Assembly (NCBI RefSeq): GCF_056746865.1
Contig: NZ_CM163382.1
Length of the DNA stretch: 64,000 bases
Strand: one strand, 5' to 3'
The notes below the pieces were generated by a model, which worked only from the letters and a program-made list of their open reading frames with translations, was not told the DNA's origin and searched no databases. This document shows positions 19,466 to 27,918 of this stretch, in pieces (position 1 is the stretch's first letter; every line of letters begins with the position of its first letter). A program made the position numbers and the translations under genes.

Positions 19466-19577
19466 ATAACACTGGAGAATAAAATTTATCCGGTGAATGT
19501 GGTCGGAAAACAAAGAGGAAAGGGGGTGGGGCTAATCGGCAGGGAAGGCCGCCCCGGATAGCGGGCGGCAGAAGCAA

Positions 19578-20351
19578 TCAGAATTTCCAGGTCAGATGGG
19601 CTGCAAGTTGCAGACCGTTATAATCATCGGTTGGGGTGTCGTACCACACTTTACCTGCCGTCAGCCCGAGATTAAGTTGCTCAGTCAGCGGTTGAATACG
19701 TTGCAAACTGACGCTCTTCATGCTGCCGTAGCGTGTTTCTGGCGTCCAGTCATAGGTGTAAGCACCTGTTCCGCGGCTTAGCCATAGTTGCGTATAACCA
19801 GTGCCGCGCGGGTCATTCAGACGCACGGAAATCATATTGCTGTAACTACCACCTGCATCGCTGGAGTCATAATGGGTATAGCGGTAGCTGGAGATCACCG
19901 GGCCAGTATAGAGTGATACGCCGCCTTGCCAGGCATCGACTTCGACATCATCGTAATATTTAGTGTAGCGATAACCGGTCGTGAAAAGCGTTTTTGGCAA
20001 CAGTGCCAGGTTAATATCCTGACGAAAATCCTGGCGGGCAAAGACCGGCGTATTATCCGCAAAGGCAATACCCATTCGGGTTGTCAGCCAGTTATTCCAT
20101 TTATACCAGACCGCACCCTGACCGCGAGTGGCATTGAAATGTTCAGTTTCATAATCACGACGCCCCTGGGAAAGATTAAAAAGCAGCGTTGCGTTTTCAA
20201 CTTTCGCCACCAGTTCAGCATACGCTAAATTACGGTTGCCATGATCGCCAGAATAATCGGTAAAATCGTAGCCCGCGGTAATGGAAGTTAACCCGGCATA
20301 AGCGGGCAATGTGCTAAAAATTGCTGCCGCTAATAACGTCCGTTTTATCAT
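19578..20351 (-). CDS. yaiO: outer membrane beta-barrel protein YaiO
   Basis: 257 aa; signal peptide MIKRTLLAAAIFSTLPAYA; aromatic-rich, ends TWKF. Confidence 0.85.
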   Translation of the reverse strand: MIKRTLLAAAIFSTLPAYAGLTSITAGYDFTDYSGDHGNRNLAYAELVAKVENATLLFNLSQGRRDYETEHFNATRGQGAVWYKWNNWLTTRMGIAFADNTPVFARQDFRQDINLALLPKTLFTTGYRYTKYYDDVEVDAWQGGVSLYTGPVISSYRYTHYDSSDAGGSYSNMISVRLNDPRGTGYTQLWLSRGTGAYTYDWTPETRYGSMKSVSLQRIQPLTEQLNLGLTAGKVWYDTPTDDYNGLQLAAHLTWKF

Positions 20352-20352
20352 T

Positions 20353-21045
20353 TTAATCTCCTGTACGGATAAGTTCTTGTCGGAGTGAATAAGTTCCGGG
20401 AGGTAAATTACGTTCTACAATCACGCGCGGGCCAAGTTGCGTGTTCGGGGAAATAATTCGCCCAGGCAAAATAATAACTTGTACGCCAAGGCGTGAACGC
20501 TGCCCGATATAACAACCTAATTTATCGCATCCGGTAGCGATAATTCCCTCTGGAGTTCGAACAGACACGGGCTGTTGATCCAGACGATGATTACTGGTAC
20601 GTACTTGTGCGCCCAAATATGCCTGGTTTGCAACTACCGAGTCGGCGATAAAGCATTGCGGACCAATCGTTGCTTCCGCTTCAATAACCGCATTTTTAAT
20701 TTCGGTGGCGAAACCAATTTTTACGCCATTGCTGATTATTGTGCCAGGACGAATAAACGCATAATTACCTATCAGGCAGTTTGCGCCAATCACTACCGGA
20801 CCCTGAATAACGGCACCGTGACAAATACGGGTATTCGCGCCGATAACAACTTCACCTGCAGTTTCATCAATAATTACCTGGTCTGCAATCTGAATATTTT
20901 TCTCTTTAACATTAAGCTTCAGAAAGTTTTTCAGTTCCTGTGACAGAAGGTTGGGAATAAGAGGTTGACGCTTCCACCAGTGCGGAATAGCGGGTGGGTT
21001 TGTCGCGCTGAGGTTCGCGTCCAGTAAAAAAGGCAATAAGTCCAT
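20353..21045 (-). CDS. yaiX: hexapeptide-repeat acyltransferase YaiX (intact here)
   Basis: left-handed beta-helix hexapeptide repeats (GANTRICHGAVIQGPVVIGANCLIG...); start uncertain (ATG 21063, ATG 21045 or TTG 21036); no IS interruption. Confidence 0.7.
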   Translation of the reverse strand: MDLLPFLLDANLSATNPPAIPHWWKRQPLIPNLLSQELKNFLKLNVKEKNIQIADQVIIDETAGEVVIGANTRICHGAVIQGPVVIGANCLIGNYAFIRPGTIISNGVKIGFATEIKNAVIEAEATIGPQCFIADSVVANQAYLGAQVRTSNHRLDQQPVSVRTPEGIIATGCDKLGCYIGQRSRLGVQVIILPGRIISPNTQLGPRVIVERNLPPGTYSLRQELIRTGD

Positions 21046-22108
21046 AAATAATCCAGATGGCATAAGCTAATAATACATACACAACGGAAAGCGGTGCTAA
21101 AGGCACCAACAACCAGCAACGATGAAACCAGGCGCTAAAAGCACCAATAACACAAACTACGCCGACCCAGATAAGCGGAAACATTGCCAACACCACACCA
21201 TACGGCCCGGTGGTGATGAATTCATTAAACCAGGTAGTGAGATAAATCCCAACGCCATAAAGCACAACCAACAGCATAGGAAATATACTGAAGATACCGA
21301 AGCGGCTAAATAAAAGCCTTTTATGCAGGCGCATACAGACCGCGTAGCCCACAATCCAACGCCGCCAGCGACGCCATTCCTCACGCGGGCTGTTGCATTC
21401 CTGTGGGTATACGATGCAGCGATTCGCCTGCCGAATACGATAGCCGTTTGCCACCAATGTCCAGGTGAGATCAAGGTCTTCGACTTTAGTACGATCAGAG
21501 AAACCGAACTTACGCAATACATCAGTACGGAACATCCCGCAGGCACCGCTGATAATAAACGGTGCGCCGCCCAGGAGCTGCTGTAGCGTGCGCTTCATAA
21601 CAATCATCGGCAACTTTACGGTCGCGCGGATGTGCGGTAACAGACCCGCGCCTTTCAACGCAGTAGAGGGAATGCCGCCTACGGCATCAGCACCGCGCTC
21701 TATTTCTGCAAGCATATAGCCCATTCCGTCTTGATCGGGCGGAACATAGGTGTCGGCATCACTTAAAAAAACCTGGTCGCAGGTGGCGTAATTGAGGCCA
21801 TTCATCAGCGCACCACCTTTACCGGTATTTTTTTGCGTGACGGCAACAAAGCGGTCGCCCCATTTGCGTTTGACTTCCGCCATGACCGCTTCGGTATTGT
21901 CCGTGGAGCCGTCGTTTACGCAAATTACCCGGCAAAAATAAGGATTACGCAGCAGATTATCCAGTGACTGTGCCAGACACGGGCCTTCGTTATAAGCAGG
22001 TATAATGGCGTCAATACAGCCTTTCTTTTGACTGGGTTTACGTTTTAGCGTACTTAAAAACCATAGCAACATTGCTATGGACATACAGATAAATATCCAG
22101 GTTTTCAT
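20912..22108 (-). CDS. yaiP: family-2 glycosyltransferase with membrane domain YaiP
   Basis: 398 aa; N-terminal TM, GT-A fold motifs (VNDGSTD, DAD), C-terminal TM segments. Confidence 0.8.
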   Translation of the reverse strand: MKTWIFICMSIAMLLWFLSTLKRKPSQKKGCIDAIIPAYNEGPCLAQSLDNLLRNPYFCRVICVNDGSTDNTEAVMAEVKRKWGDRFVAVTQKNTGKGGALMNGLNYATCDQVFLSDADTYVPPDQDGMGYMLAEIERGADAVGGIPSTALKGAGLLPHIRATVKLPMIVMKRTLQQLLGGAPFIISGACGMFRTDVLRKFGFSDRTKVEDLDLTWTLVANGYRIRQANRCIVYPQECNSPREEWRRWRRWIVGYAVCMRLHKRLLFSRFGIFSIFPMLLVVLYGVGIYLTTWFNEFITTGPYGVVLAMFPLIWVGVVCVIGAFSAWFHRCWLLVPLAPLSVVYVLLAYAIWIIYGLIAFFTGREPQRDKPTRYSALVEASTSYSQPSVTGTEKLSEA

Positions 22109-22117
22109 GCAATTTGC

Positions 22118-22789
22118 TCAAAGAATCATTTTATGAATTACAAAGCCTTCACCCAGATCGCTATTGACCTGTTGCCCGCGAAATTGTGCAACTGCACGCA
22201 GGCGATCATGACGCATATAATCGCGTCGTTCCTGGCTTTTATGTTTTTTTAATGCAGCAAGTTTGACTGTGAAATATTCTTCTTTAACGGATTCAAAAAC
22301 CTGAGGCATAAATGAAAGCCAGGTGCTTGGGGTTTCGTAGCCGAGAATTTGTGGAATAGTTCGGCAGGCAACCATTGAAGCTTGATAAACAGCAAGATGA
22401 TCCTGATGGCGGTCGGCATCATGCATGGTATATACCCGCATGATTTCAACATCAGAAGGAATTTGATTTTTAATGATGTCTTCCAGGGCGGAAATCATAT
22501 CATTGAGCTGCAAATGCGCGCGGGTGTCAGCAAAATTAAGATGAATAGTTTGGTGGCACCCTAATATCTTTAGGGCGTTGCGCGATTCTTCATGGCGATC
22601 GATTATTCCATCTGTGCCAGAGTTGCCGGTAGTCATCACCACGGCTGCGATATAAATTCCTTTTTGCGCAAGACGAGCAAGCGACGCGCCACAGCCCAAT
22701 TCTATATCGTCAGGATGTGCGTCAATAGCAAGGATACCCTTTCTTTTATTTGCCGAAGAAAGGATGGCTGAATCTAAAACCTTATCCAC
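22118..22789 (-). CDS. yaiS: LmbE/PIG-L family deacetylase YaiS
   Basis: AHPDDIELG motif typical of the PIG-L/LmbE N-deacetylase family; 223-aa ORF (start may be internal). Confidence 0.75.
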   Translation of the reverse strand: MDKVLDSAILSSANKRKGILAIDAHPDDIELGCGASLARLAQKGIYIAAVVMTTGNSGTDGIIDRHEESRNALKILGCHQTIHLNFADTRAHLQLNDMISALEDIIKNQIPSDVEIMRVYTMHDADRHQDHLAVYQASMVACRTIPQILGYETPSTWLSFMPQVFESVKEEYFTVKLAALKKHKSQERRDYMRHDRLRAVAQFRGQQVNSDLGEGFVIHKMIL

Positions 22790-23397
22790 TTAATGACACT
22801 CCATTTTATTTATTATACTACAAGCACAACGATGCCCGCAGAGACGTAATCTCTGGCACAGACAGATGCTAATTTTTAAGTGTTAAAAATTACTGATAGC
22901 TGAAAAATAAGGGGCTTTCAGGTACGGGGATACGACTGCGTAATCTTTTATGTAGTTCATATGTTAAGTGTTTGTGTGTTTGGTTTGTATAGTTATTTTG
23001 TTTTATATATTGTATTTAGATGTGATTTAGTTTGTCAATTAATTACATATTAAAAATATGTTCTAGGCACAAATATGGATTATATACATTATGTGAATGT
23101 ATTATGTGGTTGATTGAGAATGATACAGTTATATATGCAATGTGAATATAATGATTTCATTATATGTATTGCTGTTAATAAAATAAAAGACATTATGTTC
23201 TGCTTGTTTATGCATTAATAAAAATGAAGTGCAGTAACTTACTGAATTGTCAGCGTGGGTGTAATTGCATATTTAATCTTTCCTTTGCCGCTTTTTTGCT
23301 AAGAATAAAATCATCTGTGCGATAACGACTAATTCTTTTAATGAATGTTTTTATTCCTGAATACTGCTCCTATAACAAGACAGGGGAGCAGACAATC

Positions 23398-24360
23398 ATG
23401 GCAATTTCATCGCGTAACACACTTCTTGCCGCACTGGCATTCATCGCTTTTCAGGCACAGGCGGTGAACGTCACCGTGGCCTATCAAACCTCCGCTGAAC
23501 CGGCGAAAGTGGCTCAGGCTGATAACACCTTTGCTAAAGAGAGCGGGGCGACGGTGGACTGGCGTAAGTTTGACAGCGGAGCCAGCATCGTGCGGGCGCT
23601 GGCTTCAGGCGATGTCCAAATCGGTAACCTCGGTTCCAGCCCATTAGCGGTGGCAGCCAGCCAACAGGTGCCGATTGAAGTCTTCTTACTGGCGTCAAAA
23701 CTGGGTAACTCCGAAGCGCTGGTGGTAAAGAAAACTATCAGCAAACCGGAAGATCTGATTGGCAAACGCATCGCCGTACCGTTTATCTCCACCACCCATT
23801 ACAGCCTGCTGGCGGCGCTGAAACACTGGGGTATAAAACCCGGACAAGTGGAGATAGTGAACCTGCAGCCACCCGCGATTATCGCCGCATGGCAACGGGG
23901 AGACATTGATGGTGCTTATGTCTGGGCACCGGCGGTTAACGCCCTGGAAAAAGACGGCAAGGTGCTGACCGATTCTGAACAGGTCGGGCAGTGGGGCGCG
24001 CCGACGCTGGATGTTTGGGTAGTGCGCAAAGATTTTGCCGAGAAACATCCTGAGGTCGTGAAAGCGTTCGCTAAAAGCGCCATCGATGCTCAGCAACCGT
24101 ACATTGCTAACCCAGACGCGTGGCTGAAACAGCCGGAAAACATCAGCAAGCTGGCGCGTTTAAGCGGCGTGCCGGAAGGTGACGTGCCGGGGCTGGTGAA
24201 GGGGAATACCTATCTGACGCCGCAGCAACAAACGGCAGAACTGACCGGACCGGTGAACAAAGCAATTATCGACACCGCGCAGTTTTTGAAAGAGCAGGGC
24301 AAAGTCCCCGCCGTGGCGAATGATTACAGCCAGTACGTTACCTCGCGCTTCGTACAATAA
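23398..24360 (+). CDS. tauA: taurine ABC transporter periplasmic binding protein
   Basis: MAISSRNTLLAALAFIAFQAQA signal peptide, 320 aa. Confidence 0.9.
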   Translation: MAISSRNTLLAALAFIAFQAQAVNVTVAYQTSAEPAKVAQADNTFAKESGATVDWRKFDSGASIVRALASGDVQIGNLGSSPLAVAASQQVPIEVFLLASKLGNSEALVVKKTISKPEDLIGKRIAVPFISTTHYSLLAALKHWGIKPGQVEIVNLQPPAIIAAWQRGDIDGAYVWAPAVNALEKDGKVLTDSEQVGQWGAPTLDVWVVRKDFAEKHPEVVKAFAKSAIDAQQPYIANPDAWLKQPENISKLARLSGVPEGDVPGLVKGNTYLTPQQQTAELTGPVNKAIIDTAQFLKEQGKVPAVANDYSQYVTSRFVQ

Positions 24361-24372
24361 AAGGAGGCGCGG

Positions 24373-25140
24373 ATGCTGCAAATCTCTCATCTCTATGCCG
24401 ATTATGGCGGCAAACTGGCGTTGGAAGATATCAACCTGACGCTGGAAAGCGGCGAGCTGCTGGTGGTGCTGGGGCCGTCTGGCTGCGGCAAAACCACCTT
24501 GCTGAATCTGATTGCCGGTTTTGTGCCTTATCAGCATGGCAGCATTCAACTGGCGGGTAAGTGCATTGAGGGACCGGGAGCAGAGCGGGGCGTGGTTTTT
24601 CAGAATGAAGGGCTGTTGCCGTGGCGTAATGTGGTAGACAACGTGGCGTTCGGCCTGCAACTGGCAGGTGTAGAGAAAGCACTGCGCCTGGAAATCGCGC
24701 ACCAGATGCTGAAAAAAGTGGGGCTGGAAGGCGCAGAAAAACGCTATATCTGGCAGCTTTCCGGCGGTCAACGTCAGCGGGTAGGGATTGCCCGCGCGCT
24801 GGCGGCGAATCCCCAGCTGTTATTACTCGACGAACCGTTTGGCGCGCTGGACGCCTTCACCCGCGATCAGATGCAAACTCTGCTGCTGAAACTCTGGCAG
24901 GAGACAGGTAAGCAGGTGCTGTTGATTACCCACGATATAGAAGAAGCGGTGTTTATGGCAACCGAACTGGTTCTGCTTTCACCCGGCCCAGGCCGTGTGC
25001 TGGAGCGGCTGCCGCTCAACTTTGCTCGCCGCTTTGTTGCGGGAGAGTCGAGCCGCAGCATCAAGTCCGATCCACAATTCATCGCCATGCGCGAATATGT
25101 TTTAAGCCGCGTATTTGAGCAACGGGAGGCGTTCTCATGA
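24373..25140 (+). CDS. tauB: taurine ABC transporter ATPase
   Basis: Walker [10 protein letters not shown], signature LSGGQRQRV; 255 aa. Confidence 0.92.
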
Positions 25141-25964
25141 GTGTGCTCATTAATGAAAAACTGCATTCGCGGCGGCTGAAATGGCGCTGGCCGCTCTCGC
25201 GTCAGGTGACCTTAAGCATTGGCACGTTAGCGGTTTTACTCACTGTATGGTGGACGGTGGCGGCGCTGCAACTGATTAGCCCGCTGTTTTTGCCGCCGCC
25301 GCAACAAGTACTGGCAAAACTGCTCACCATTGCCGGACCGCAGGGATTTATGGACGCCACCCTGTGGCAGCATCTGGCAGCCAGCCTGACGCGCATTGTG
25401 CTGGCGCTACTTGCGGCGGTGTTGATCGGCATTCCGGTTGGGATCGCCATGGGGCTAAGCCCGACGGTGCGCGGCATTCTGGATCCGATAATTGAATTGT
25501 ATCGCCCGGTGCCGCCGCTGGCGTATTTGCCGCTGATGGTGATCTGGTTTGGTATTGGTGAAACCTCGAAGATCTTACTGATCTATTTAGCGATTTTTGC
25601 ACCTGTGGCGATGTCGGCGCTGGCGGGGGTGAAAAGCGCGCAGCAGGTTCGCATTCGTGCCGCCCAGTCGCTGGGTGCCAGCCGTGCGCAGGTGCTGTGG
25701 TTTGTTATTTTGCCCGGTGCGCTGCCGGAAATTCTCACCGGATTACGCATTGGTCTGGGTGTGGGCTGGTCTACCCTGGTGGCGGCGGAGCTGATTGCCG
25801 CGACGCGCGGTTTGGGTTTTATGGTCCAGTCAGCGGGTGAATTTCTCGCGACTGACGTGGTGCTGGCGGGGATCGCGGTGATTGCGATTATCGCCTTTCT
25901 TTTAGAACTGGGTCTGCGCGCGTTACAGCGCCGCCTCACGCCCTGGCATGGAGAAGTACAATGA
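25137..25964 (+). CDS. tauC: taurine ABC transporter permease
   Basis: 275 aa multi-span permease; 4-bp overlaps with tauB and tauD. Confidence 0.9.
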
Positions 25965-26582
25965 GTGAACGTCTGAGCATTACCCCGCTGGGGCCGTATA
26001 TTGGCGCACAAATTACGGGTGCCGACCTGACGCGCCCGTTAAGTGATAACCAGTTTGAACAGCTTTACCATGCGGTACTGCGTCATCAGGTGGTGTTTCT
26101 GCGTGAACAGGCCATTACGCCGCAGCAGCAACGCGCGCTGGCCCAGCGTTTTGGCGAGCTGCATATTCATCCTGTTTACCCTCATGCCGAAGGGGTTGAC
26201 GAGATTATCGTACTGGATACTCATAACGATAATCCGCCAGATAACGACAACTGGCATACCGATGTGACATTTATTGAAACGCCTCCTGCTGGGGCGATTC
26301 TGGCGGCGAAAGAGTTACCCTCGACTGGCGGCGATACGCTATGGACCAGCGGTATTGCGGCGTATGAGGCACTCTCTGTTCCCTTCCGCCAGCTGTTGAG
26401 CGGGCTGCGTGCGGAGCATGATTTCCGTAAATCGTTCCCAGAATACAAATACCGCAAAACGGAGGAGGAGCATCAACGCTGGCGCGAGGCGGTCGCGAAA
26501 AATCCGCCGTTACTACATCCGGTGGTGCGAACGCATCCGGTGAGCGGTAAACAGGCGCTGTTTGTGAATGAAGGCTTTACTA

Positions 26583-26587
26583 CGCGA
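26583..26587. repeat. IS2 target-site duplication, upstream copy
   Basis: cgcga immediately flanking the IS2 end. Confidence 0.8.
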
Positions 26588-26598
26588 TGGATTTGCCC

Positions 26599-27504
26599 CT
26601 ATATTTCCAGACACCTGTTATCACTTAACCCATTACTGGCCCGCTGCCGTAGATATTCCCGTGGCGAGCGATAACCCAGTGCACTATGCGGATGCCATTC
26701 GTTATAATGCTCGAACGCCTCTGCAAGGTTCTTTGCTGCCGTTAACCCGTCTGGTTTAGGCATGATACTGATGTAGTCACGCTTTATCGTTTTCACGAAG
26801 CTCTCTGCTATGCCGTTACTCTCCGGACTCCGCACCGCCGTGTTCTTCGGTTCAAGCCCCAACATCCGGGCAAACTGCCGTGTTTCATTAGCCCGGTAGC
26901 ATGAACCATTATCCGTCAGCCACTCTACTGGAGACGCCGGAAGCTCGTTGCCGAAGCGGCGTTCCACCGCTCCCAGCATTACGTCCTGTACTGTTTCACT
27001 GTCGAAGCCGCCCGTAGTGACTGCCCAGTGCAGTGCCTCACGGTCACAGCAGTCCAGCGCGAACGTGACTCGCAGTTTTTCTCCGTTATCACAGCGGAAC
27101 TCGAACCCGTCAGAGCACCATCGTTGATTGCTTTCTTTCACGGCCACTTTGCCAGTATGTGCCCGTTTCGATGGCGGTACAGCGGTTTTTCGCTCAAGCA
27201 ACAGCGCATTCTGGCGCATGATCCGGTAAACACGTTTGGCATTGATCGCAGGCATACCATCAAGTTCGGCCTGTCTGCGAAGCAGCGCCCATACCCGACG
27301 ATAACCATACGTGGGCAGCTCTCCGATAACATGGTGTATACGGAGAAGCACATCCGTATCATCTGAGTGACGGCTGCGGCGACCATCTTTCCAGTCATCG
27401 GTTCGTCTGAGAATGACGTGCAACTGCGCACGCGACACCCGGAGACAACGGCTGACTAAGCTTACTCCCCATCCCCGGGCAATAAGGGCGCGTGCGCTAT
27501 CCAC
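26599..27504 (-). CDS. insD: IS2 transposase OrfB (InsD), DDE integrase-like
   Basis: 301 aa, GTG start, [30 protein letters not shown]... Confidence 0.9.
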
Positions 27505-27827
27505 TTTTTTGCACGCCCGTATTCAACGGCTTCTTTAAGGAGTTCATTTTCCATCGTTTTTTTGCCGAGCAGGCGCTGGAGTTCTTTAATCTGCTTCATG
27601 GCAGCAGCAAGTTCAGAGGCAGGAACGACCTGCTCTCCTGCGGCCACAGCAGTAAGACTTCCCTCCTGGTATTGCTTGCGCCAGAGAAATAACTGGCTGG
27701 CTGCCACACCGTGTTGCCGGGCAACAAGGGAGACCGTCATTCCCGGTTCAAAACTCTGCTGAACAATAGCGATCTTTTCCTGTGTAGTACGCCGTCTGCG
27801 TTTCTCCGGTCCTAAGACATCAATCAT
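27462..27827 (-). CDS. insC: IS2 transposase OrfA (InsC), HTH protein
   Basis: [56 protein letters not shown], 121 aa. Confidence 0.9.
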
Positions 27828-27918
27828 CTGCTCTCCAATGACTAGTCTAAAAACTAGTATTAAGACTATCACTTATTTAAGTGATATTGGTTGTCTGGAG
27901 ATTCAGGGGGCCAGTCTA

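What the first reader, a model, noticed from the sequence alone, without database searches (positions are those of the whole stretch)
22790..23397. About 600 bp of strongly AT-rich divergent intergenic DNA between yaiS and tauA
This is an unusually long non-coding stretch for E. coli, with many short A/T tracts and repeated tgtg/atat motifs. It must hold the sulfur-starvation-regulated tauA promoter and the promoter of the yaiS-yaiP-yaiX-yaiO unit. The composition suggests curved, nucleoid-protein-bound DNA and leaves room for an unannotated small RNA or small protein.
Basis: seen in the sequence. Interest (0 to 1): 0.3.

Follow-up and report, generated by a model that had tools for sequence, protein, structure and literature searches.

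The report
AT-rich yaiS–tauA promoter island
The long AT-rich gap between yaiS and tauA is real, but it matches a published H-NS-bound "promoter island" of E. coli K-12: a short native tauA control region joined to about 470 bp of fast-evolving AT-rich DNA that comes with an optional four-gene sugar-polymer cassette, and I found no evidence of a hidden RNA or protein gene.

Summary
The yaiS–tauA spacer is 22790-23397 (608 bp, 30% GC, core 23% GC). It is the most AT-rich 608-bp stretch of the window and the longest of about 50 spacers nearby.

The K-12 counterpart is published as one of 78 "promoter islands". It is H-NS-bound in every ChIP study cited there and bound by sigma-70 and sigma-S RNA polymerase in genomic SELEX.

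Forty-three alleles show a block structure:
- a conserved tauA-proximal block (23262-23397);
- a conserved middle block (22958-23049) with a near-consensus promoter facing yaiS (TTGACA-18-TACAAT);
- a conserved yaiS ribosome-binding block (22790-22835);
- two variable blocks, 79-80% identical to K-12, at or above the synonymous-site rate.

yaiO-X-P-S plus the spacer up to about 23260 is an accessory segment. At least 628 of 5426 complete E. coli genomes carry the alternative junction in which frmR abuts tauA, and the four genes sit elsewhere in a Citrobacter.

I found no Rfam match, no terminator, no structure signal and no selectively maintained small ORF. A wedge model predicted no unusual curvature. 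Promoter-like sites are no denser than the base composition predicts.

Verdict: real, ordinary, already described. One weak lead is a 25-codon upstream ORF in the yaiS leader.

The parts
22790..23397 (.). Whole yaiS-tauA divergent spacer, 608 bp, 30.3% GC
22790..22835 (-). Conserved yaiS-proximal block. It holds the Shine-Dalgarno GGAG (22802..22799, 9 nt before the GTG) and a perfect TATAAT (22817..22812) with a poor -35. The RpoS-holoenzyme SELEX peak of K-12 maps to about 22817.
   Evidence: 100% identical to K-12 and 91% to E. whittamii; hexamers; SELEX peak
22839..22855 (-). Conserved inverted repeat CAGAGA-CGTAA-TCTCTG inside variable DNA. It would form a 6-7 bp hairpin in the yaiS leader RNA. 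Function unknown.
   Evidence: Kept in all 78 sampled sequences. The one variant type gives a G-U pair on the minus-strand RNA.
22836..22957 (.). Variable block 1 (yaiS leader), 79-80% identical between the window type and the K-12 type
22883..22960 (-). 25-codon upstream ORF in the putative yaiS leader. No Shine-Dalgarno and the peptide is not conserved. A weak candidate only.
   Evidence: Intact at 25 codons in 77 of 78 sequences, in 17 peptide variants. K-12 type differs by compensating +1/-1 indels. Neutral retention probability is 0.17-0.45 per lineage.
22958..23049 (-). Conserved middle block holding the yaiS-facing sigma-70 promoter: -35 TTGACA 23038..23033, 18-nt spacer, -10 TACAAT 23014..23009. 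The inferred start near 23001 gives a leader of about 210 nt.
   Evidence: 11 of 12 consensus matches. 94.6% identical to K-12 against 79% in the flanks. Same hexamers predicted from RpoD SELEX. The transcription start itself is inferred, not mapped.
22968..22983 (.). Two tandem copies of the 8-bp unit GTGTTTGT (ACAAACAC in the leader). FDAARGOS_1290 has three copies.
22944..23243 (.). Counterpart of the published K-12 'promoter island' (U00096.2 383994-384302). This is the H-NS-bound AT-rich core, about 23% GC.
   Evidence: Coordinates, mapped through the alignment; GC
23050..23261 (.). Variable block 2, 79% identical to K-12, with a 9-bp indel. Strain XJW9B277 has an IS1 insertion here (near 23175).
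23080..23150 (.). Imperfect 22-nt direct repeat (TTATATAYNNNATGTGAATNTA), two copies 49 bp apart. Possibly protein-binding sites; untested.
23262..23397 (+). Conserved native tauA control block. It holds a -10-like TATAAC (23371-23376), the Shine-Dalgarno GGGGAG (23383-23388), and presumably the Cbl/CysB sites characterised in K-12.
   Evidence: 97.8% identical to K-12. It is the only part of the spacer with significant residual homology to the allele of genomes that lack the cassette (23267-23340, 0 of 500 shuffles).
19494..23260 (-). Accessory segment: yaiO (outer-membrane barrel), yaiX (hexapeptide acyltransferase), yaiP (GT2 glycosyltransferase), yaiS (PIG-L deacetylase), plus about 470 bp of the AT-rich spacer
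   Evidence: Replaced by 164 bp in RMDEC465-type genomes. That junction type occurs in 628 of 5426 genomes. The four genes sit in another context in Citrobacter sp. FP75. Pfam assignments.

Best explanation
The spacer is a composite divergent control region made of two parts.

(1) The tauA-proximal part, about 136 bp (23262-23397), is the native sulfate-starvation promoter of tauABCD. It is activated by the LysR-type regulators Cbl and CysB.

(2) The remaining 470 bp or so belong to the optional yaiS-yaiP-yaiX-yaiO exopolysaccharide-like cassette. This part consists of:
- a near-consensus sigma-70 promoter facing yaiS;
- a leader of about 210 nt;
- a core of 23% GC.

The core corresponds to the K-12 'promoter island'. 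In K-12 it binds RNA polymerase avidly but is coated by H-NS, so the cassette stays essentially silent.

Outside the three conserved blocks, the sequence drifts at about the neutral rate. What is maintained there is AT-richness, not sequence. The spacer therefore acts as an H-NS nucleation and silencing platform and as promoter DNA, not as a gene.

Shown here: boundaries, composition, block structure, promoter match, presence/absence of the cassette, and lack of RNA or ORF signals.
Taken from the literature for K-12: H-NS and RNA polymerase binding, and low transcription.
Inferred: the same behaviour in this strain, the yaiS transcription start, and the position of the Cbl/CysB sites.
For: Composition and length.

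Literature on K-12:
- The yaiS/tauA spacer is one of 78 promoter islands. It is H-NS-bound in all data sets cited, and its neighbours are predicted foreign by three methods (PMC3661553).
- As a class, promoter islands bind RNA polymerase but give little long RNA (abstract).
- An RpoD SELEX peak carries the same TTGACA-18-TACAAT (PMC3946193).
- There is also an RpoS SELEX peak (PMC5493296).

Comparative evidence:
- The promoter scans at 11 of 12 and is conserved in all alleles.
- The block structure holds across 43 alleles.
- Variable blocks differ from K-12 by 20-21%, against 14.5-16.5% at four-fold sites of tauABC and 4-6% in yaiSP.
- The cassette is absent in at least 628 genomes, and residual homology is restricted to 23267-23340.
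- The cassette lies in a different context in Citrobacter, with an unrelated upstream region.

Negative results for a hidden gene: no Rfam family or terminator, no fold signal or covariation, and no maintained ORF.
Against: - There are no binding or transcription data for this strain. Its core is only about 82% identical to K-12, although equally AT-rich.
- The yaiS transcription start is not mapped.
- I could not retrieve the primary tau promoter paper, so the Cbl/CysB site positions rest on memory. An alignment with the ssuE upstream region gave no shared motif.
- Promoter-like sites (13 per 608 bp) are in the top 3% of the window but no more frequent than in composition-matched shuffles (18.2 +/- 5.4). 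The H-NS 10-mer motif is not enriched either. The 'island' property is therefore a consequence of composition, not a separate signal.
- The conservation of the roughly 45 bp downstream of the inferred yaiS start (22958-23000) is unexplained.
Confidence: 0.75

Rival explanations
1. The yaiS leader carries a functional 25-codon upstream ORF (22960..22883, minus strand). Translation of this ORF, rather than its peptide, would control the cassette, for example by protecting the long leader from Rho-dependent termination.
For: It is the only one of about 10 ORFs overlapping variable DNA that is intact in all six reference alleles. It is exactly 25 codons in 77 of 78 sampled sequences across three E. 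coli allele clusters and E. whittamii. In the K-12 type the frame is restored by compensating +1/-1 indels.
Against: There is no Shine-Dalgarno sequence. The peptide is highly variable, with 17 variants and a middle section read in a different frame. One allele is truncated at 13 codons. Neutral simulation gives a retention probability of 0.17-0.45 per lineage, or 0.49-0.70 if start and stop are taken as fixed, so the result is not significant after about 10 ORFs were tested. The start codon lies in a block that is conserved for other reasons.
Confidence: 0.1
2. The spacer encodes an unannotated small RNA or small protein on the plus strand, for example the hydrophobic 30-residue ORF at 22961..23053.
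For: The first 28 codons of that ORF are kept in most alleles. There are many promoter-like sites.
Against: - The ORF lies on the conserved yaiS promoter block, so its conservation is confounded.
- It has no Shine-Dalgarno sequence.
- Its C-terminus varies (25, 30, 35, 44 or 48 residues), and an 8-bp duplication frameshifts it in FDAARGOS_1290.
- Window against K-12 shows about 4 replacement changes to 1 silent change, as expected without coding constraint.
- Its hydrophobicity follows from the GT-rich strand composition.
- All other ORFs are broken between alleles.
- There is no Rfam hit at E up to 10 apart from two chance-level matches, and no terminator-like site.
- The held supplementary text of a 3'-end map of E. 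coli RNAs never mentions yaiS or tauA. This is weak evidence, because I did not check how those files label 3' ends or whether they were truncated.
Confidence: 0.05
3. The whole 608 bp is tauA regulatory DNA. On this reading, the distal AT-rich part provides upstream H-NS, IHF or curvature elements needed for Cbl-dependent activation.
For: H-NS is bound across the spacer in K-12. A local predicted bend of 8 degrees per turn occurs at 23292 inside the tauA block. The stretch 23200-23240 is partly conserved.
Against: Genomes without the cassette keep tauABCD with only about 170 bp of tauA-side DNA, and this is homologous only to 23267-23397. The distal part diverges at the neutral rate. Overall predicted curvature is not raised.
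Confidence: 0.08

Closest known systems
E. coli K-12 'promoter islands' (Shavkunov, Panyukov, Ozoline and colleagues); specifically island 383994_309, yaiS(-)/tauA(+)
   Same: It is the orthologous locus. The island maps to 22944-23243 of the window. The AT content is the same (about 77%), the density of promoter-like sites is high, and it adjoins horizontally acquired genes.
   Different: This strain's allele is only about 82% identical to K-12 in the core. Here the promoter-like density does not exceed what the composition predicts. H-NS and RNA polymerase binding are not measured for this allele.
H-NS xenogeneic silencing of AT-rich horizontally acquired operons (for example the bgl, appY and LEE regulatory regions)
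   Same: An AT-rich upstream region sits next to an accessory cassette of lower GC, and H-NS occupancy is reported in K-12.
   Different: No anti-silencer or inducing condition is known for yaiSPXO. The silenced region shares its spacer with a core, activator-dependent operon (tauABCD).
Cbl/CysB-activated sulfate-starvation promoters (tauA, ssuE)
   Same: The tauA-proximal block is 97.8% identical to the K-12 tau promoter region.
   Different: This covers only about 136 of the 608 bp. I could not demonstrate a shared motif with ssuE.
pgaABCD-type synthase-dependent exopolysaccharide loci
   Same: The cassette controlled from this spacer encodes a GT2 glycosyltransferase, a de-N-acetylase-family protein and an outer-membrane beta-barrel, plus an acyltransferase.
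   Different: The families differ (PIG-L rather than PgaB-type CE4, YaiO rather than PgaA). No product or function is known. This resemblance rests on domain content only.

Membership tests
Promoter island (Panyukov & Ozoline 2013) | Listed locus, or an ortholog of a listed locus | tested here: met
   Table 1 and file S2 list yaiS(-)/tauA(+) at 383994-384302. This maps to window 22944-23243.
Promoter island (Panyukov & Ozoline 2013) | At least 300 bp with an exceptionally high density of promoter-like start points and about 71% AT | tested here: met
   A simple hexamer scan gives 13 sites per 608 bp against a window mean of 3.8 (top 3%), and the core is 77% AT. The density is not above composition-matched shuffles (18.2 +/- 5.4). 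I did not run PlatProm, the original tool.
Promoter island (Panyukov & Ozoline 2013) | Binds RNA polymerase and H-NS but gives little full-length RNA | not testable with these tools
   Known for K-12 from the literature only.
Promoter island (Panyukov & Ozoline 2013) | Association with horizontally acquired genes | tested here: met
   The alternative junction without the cassette occurs in at least 628 of 5426 genomes, and the cassette lies in another context in Citrobacter.
Cbl/CysB-dependent promoter | Footprinted Cbl and CysB sites upstream of the -35, and dependence on cbl and cysB | not testable with these tools
   The primary paper (PMID 9401024) is not held. I can only show 97.8% identity to K-12.
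Cbl/CysB-dependent promoter | Recognisable shared operator motif with the other Cbl target, ssuE | tested here: inconclusive
   The best local alignment scores 26, against 22.9 +/- 3.1 for shuffles.
Small regulatory RNA gene | Match to a described family, or a promoter plus intrinsic terminator bracketing a conserved, structured segment | tested here: not met
   Rfam gives only chance-level hits. No terminator-like sites. On the yaiS-leader strand, the only strand folded, the fold z-score is -1.19 and the covariation term +0.16. The variable blocks evolve at the neutral rate.
Small protein gene | ORF with a ribosome-binding site, kept intact and under purifying selection across alleles | tested here: not met
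   The only retained ORFs lie in conserved DNA blocks or have a non-conserved peptide.
Intrinsically curved DNA | Predicted curvature above background | tested here: not met
   The Bolshoy-Trifonov wedge model, run in my own script with parameters from memory, gives a region mean of 3.0 degrees per turn against a window mean of 3.08. 98% of shuffles are more curved. There is one local peak of 8.0 at 23292.

The most novel reading that the evidence does not exclude
The 25-codon upstream ORF in the yaiS leader (22960..22883) keeps its length, but not its sequence, across three deeply diverged E. coli alleles and E. whittamii. It could be a translated leader whose ribosome occupancy gates Rho- and H-NS-dependent silencing of the yaiSPXO cassette. 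That would make this promoter island a conditional switch rather than inert silenced DNA.
Probability: 0.08. Interest if true: 0.4.

Novelty: already known. Interest (0 to 1): 0.15.

Why it matters
It matters little beyond annotation. The analysis explains why this spacer is so long and AT-rich: a native tauA control region of about 136 bp is joined to the silenced upstream region of an optional cassette. It shows that nearly all of the 'free room' evolves neutrally, so the spacer is a poor place to look for a new gene. It gives block coordinates that could guide reporter constructs for the uncharacterised yaiSPXO cassette. It also gives one example where the 'promoter island' property reduces to base composition.

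Tried and rejected
1. Anti-Shine-Dalgarno pairing. The alignment fold suggested that the conserved 5' end of the yaiS leader pairs with the yaiS start region. The best duplex is -11.7 kcal/mol, against -16.0 +/- 2.3 for shuffled leaders, so I rejected it.
2. Plus-strand 30-residue hydrophobic ORF as a membrane peptide or toxin. Rejected because of a frameshift allele, a variable C-terminus, no ribosome-binding site, and overlap with a promoter block.
3. Hypervariability as evidence of diversifying selection. The 20-21% divergence is close to the 14.5-16.5% at four-fold sites in the adjacent tau genes, so neutral drift plus a recombination break near the yaiS start is sufficient.
4. A cassette-borne promoter travelling with the genes. 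The Citrobacter yaiS upstream region has no similarity to this spacer.
5. Mobile-element or plasmid origin of the core. The plasmid-collection hits are mis-filed chromosomes.
6. Shared Cbl motif with ssuE. None detectable.
7. H-NS high-affinity 10-mer. Not enriched.
8. Literature for a mapped tauA start, TSS maps and ribosome-profiling tables. Either not held or uninformative. One ribosome-profiling table uses coordinates that do not match MG1655, so I did not use it.
9. One broad literature search on 'yaiS' returned only the surname Yaish.

Full report
**Observation**

The window has a minus-strand ORF at 22118..22789 starting with GTG, and a plus-strand gene whose annotated ATG is at 23398. 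RefSeq annotation of the near-identical strain 118UI and of K-12 MG1655 names these yaiS (PIG-L family deacetylase) and tauA. Neither record annotates anything between them.

- The spacer is exactly 22790-23397, 608 bp.
- It has 30.3% GC against 51.3% for the window. Its core, 22941-23250, has 23.2% GC.
- It is the most AT-rich 608-bp stretch in the 64 kb.
- It is the longest of about 50 intergenic gaps in 50 kb of strain 118UI.
- TGTG is mildly over-represented (z 2.4) and ATAT is not.

**What is already published**

The K-12 counterpart is 615 bp (384617-385231 in NC_000913.3). It is listed as one of 78 'promoter islands' of E. coli: entry 383994_309, yaiS(-)/tauA(+). It carries code A, meaning H-NS binding in all the ChIP studies compared, and its neighbouring genes are predicted foreign by three methods (PMC3661553). 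As a class, these islands bind RNA polymerase and form open complexes but give very little long RNA (abstract).

- Genomic SELEX with RpoD holoenzyme found a peak in this spacer. The authors predicted TTGACA-18-TACAAT for yaiS and listed H-NS (PMC3946193).
- RpoS holoenzyme also gave a peak here (PMC5493296).
- Mapped through my alignment, the island corresponds to window 22944-23243 and the RpoS peak to about 22817. This mapping assumes the usual 776-bp offset between the two K-12 sequence versions.
- The only small protein reported nearby, YkiC, lies at the yaiP/yaiS junction, outside the spacer (PMC6001520).

**Anatomy from comparison**

Megablast against 5426 complete E. coli genomes found the spacer in 4365. 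The hits fall into discrete identity classes: at least 99% in 452 genomes, 95-99% in 195, 90-95% in 468, and 80-90% in 3251.

Against K-12, the flanking genes on the yaiS side are 98-99% identical in 100-bp bins. The spacer centre is 72-89% identical, and the last 100 bp before tauA are 99% identical.

I aligned six reference alleles. I then aligned 43 distinct alleles recovered from genomes and 96 metagenome contigs. They form three E. coli clusters plus E. whittamii, and they show five blocks:

| Block | Coordinates | Identity to K-12 |
|---|---|---|
| yaiS-proximal, conserved | 22790-22835 | 100% |
| variable 1 | 22836-22957 | 79-80% |
| middle, conserved | 22958-23049 | 94.6% |
| variable 2 | 23050-23261 | 79%, with a 9-bp indel |
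| tauA-proximal, conserved | 23262-23397 | 97.8% |

Four-fold-degenerate sites differ from K-12 by 4-6% in yaiS and yaiP but by 14.5-16.5% in tauA, tauB and tauC. The variable blocks, at 20-21%, therefore evolve at or slightly above the neutral rate of the tau side. A recombination break lies near the yaiS start. I see no need to invoke diversifying selection.

**Promoters**

The only strong sigma-70 match is on the minus strand inside the conserved middle block. It is TTGACA (23038..23033), an 18-nt spacer, then TACAAT (23014..23009), 11 of 12 consensus positions. It is identical in all alleles and identical to the SELEX-based prediction. It implies a start near 23001 and a yaiS leader of about 210 nt. 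This start is inferred, not mapped.

A perfect TATAAT with a poor -35 lies at 22817..22812, near the RpoS SELEX peak.

In the tauA block there is a -10-like TATAAC (23371-23376) and the ribosome-binding sequence GGGGAG (23383-23388). I could not retrieve the paper that mapped the tau promoter and the Cbl and CysB footprints. From memory, it places a single Cbl site well upstream of the -35. I therefore leave the exact sites unassigned. An alignment with the ssuE upstream region, the other Cbl target, gave no shared motif.

**The spacer is a composite**

In strain RMDEC465, frmR lies next to tauA with a 305-bp spacer. Window 19494..23359 is replaced there by 164 bp. That junction type occurs in 628 of 5426 genomes. 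Those 164 bp have significant residual homology only to window 23267-23340 (0 of 500 shuffles) and none to 22790-23099.

A scan of species-representative genomes with YaiS found only two loci:
- E. whittamii, where the locus is syntenic;
- Citrobacter sp. FP75, where the four coding sequences are 77.7% identical but the flanks are unrelated. Its 412-bp yaiS upstream region shows no similarity to this spacer.

The native tauA control region is therefore about 136 bp. The other 470 bp or so belong to an accessory segment, 19494 to about 23260. That segment encodes a PIG-L deacetylase, a GT2 glycosyltransferase, a hexapeptide acyltransferase and the YaiO outer-membrane barrel. This explains the unusual length.

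**Tests of the 'hidden gene' idea**

- Rfam at E up to 10 gave two chance-level hits. No terminator-like site was found.
- The putative yaiS leader folds no better than shuffles (z -1.19). The alignment fold has no covariation (term +0.16).
- A suggested pairing between the leader's 5' end and the yaiS start region is weaker than in shuffled leaders.
- Of 16 ORFs of at least 12 codons, those in variable DNA are broken in other alleles, with one exception.
- The plus-strand hydrophobic 30-codon ORF (22961..23053) sits on the conserved promoter block. It lacks a ribosome-binding site, has C-termini of 25 to 48 residues, and is frameshifted by an 8-bp GTGTTTGT duplication in FDAARGOS_1290.

The exception is a 25-codon ORF on the minus strand (22960..22883) in the yaiS leader.
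- It is 25 codons in 77 of 78 sequences.
- It has 17 peptide variants, a frame-shifted middle in the K-12 type, and no Shine-Dalgarno sequence.
- Neutral simulation gives a 0.17-0.45 chance of retention per lineage, which is not significant after about 10 ORFs were examined.

I keep it as a low-probability lead.

A 6-7 bp inverted repeat, CAGAGA-CGTAA-TCTCTG (22839-22855), is conserved inside variable DNA. Its one variant keeps a G-U pair on the leader strand. Its role is unknown.

**Curvature and nucleoid-protein signals**

A Bolshoy-Trifonov wedge model, run in my own script with parameters from memory, predicts 3.0 degrees per helical turn for the region. This equals the window mean (3.08) and is below 98% of composition-matched shuffles. 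There is one local peak of 8.0 at 23292, in the tauA block.

Promoter-like hexamer pairs number 13 per 608 bp, against a window mean of 3.8. Composition-matched shuffles give 18.2 +/- 5.4. The H-NS 10-mer motif is not enriched. TpA steps are 2.6 times the window density.

So 'curved' is not supported. H-NS binding, documented for K-12, is most simply explained by AT-richness.

**Conclusion**

The finding is real but ordinary and already described for K-12. It is an H-NS-bound, RNA-polymerase-trapping AT-rich region upstream of a silenced accessory cassette, joined to the native Cbl/CysB-dependent tauA promoter. I found no support for an unannotated RNA or protein gene.

What I could not do:
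- obtain transcription, ribosome or binding data for this allele;
- place the published Cbl/CysB footprints on these coordinates;
- compare tauA upstream regions in other genera.

Noticed in passing
window 26588-27918: An IS2-like copy (95.8% identical to K-12 IS2A) interrupts tauD. K-12 and strain 118UI have an intact tauD. Over 26.5 kb up to this insertion, the window differs from 118UI by 2 nt. Taurine dioxygenase is probably inactive in this strain.
   Followed up: partly
window 22118-22789 and 20353-21063: yaiS is an intact 223-codon ORF here, as in E. whittamii and Citrobacter. K-12 has a premature stop at codon 186, and PGAP marks the gene as a pseudogene in several strains whose ORF may be intact (it is in 118UI). 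yaiX is intact here but split by IS2 in K-12. The whole cassette may therefore be functional in this lineage.
   Followed up: partly
window 19494-23260; L004 3734-4038: The yaiO-X-P-S cassette is a presence/absence polymorphism. At least 628 of 5426 complete E. coli genomes carry the junction type seen in RMDEC465, where frmR abuts tauA. Those genomes carry a deeply diverged tauA promoter allele, roughly 55-60% identical by eye over about 110 bp upstream of the last 38 bp.
   Followed up: yes
L010 1900-2669 (about window 23175): An IS1 is inserted in the variable part of the spacer in strain XJW9B277, with a 9-bp duplication GAAATAATG. At least one other genome has the same arrangement.
   Followed up: partly
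window 22968-22983; L009: The 8-bp unit GTGTTTGT is present in two tandem copies here and in three copies in FDAARGOS_1290. This is a short slippage-prone repeat just downstream of the inferred yaiS transcription start.
   Followed up: no
window 23400-26587: The tauABC genes are mosaic against K-12, with 100-bp bins from 85% to 100% identical and four-fold-site divergence of about 15-16%. That is about three times the divergence of the adjacent yaiS and yaiP, which suggests different recombination histories on the two sides of the spacer.
   Followed up: partly
K-12 ssuE/elfA spacer (L011 1014-1368): The other Cbl-dependent operon, ssuEADCB, also shares its divergent spacer with a published promoter island (996773_328, ssuE/elfA) next to a fimbrial operon. 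The cysB/ymiA spacer is listed too. This may be coincidence.
   Followed up: no
window 19494-19577: The 84 bp between the left junction of the accessory segment and the yaiO stop contain a GC-rich inverted repeat (GCCGCCCCGGATAGCGGGCGGC). It looks like the terminator of the cassette.
   Followed up: no
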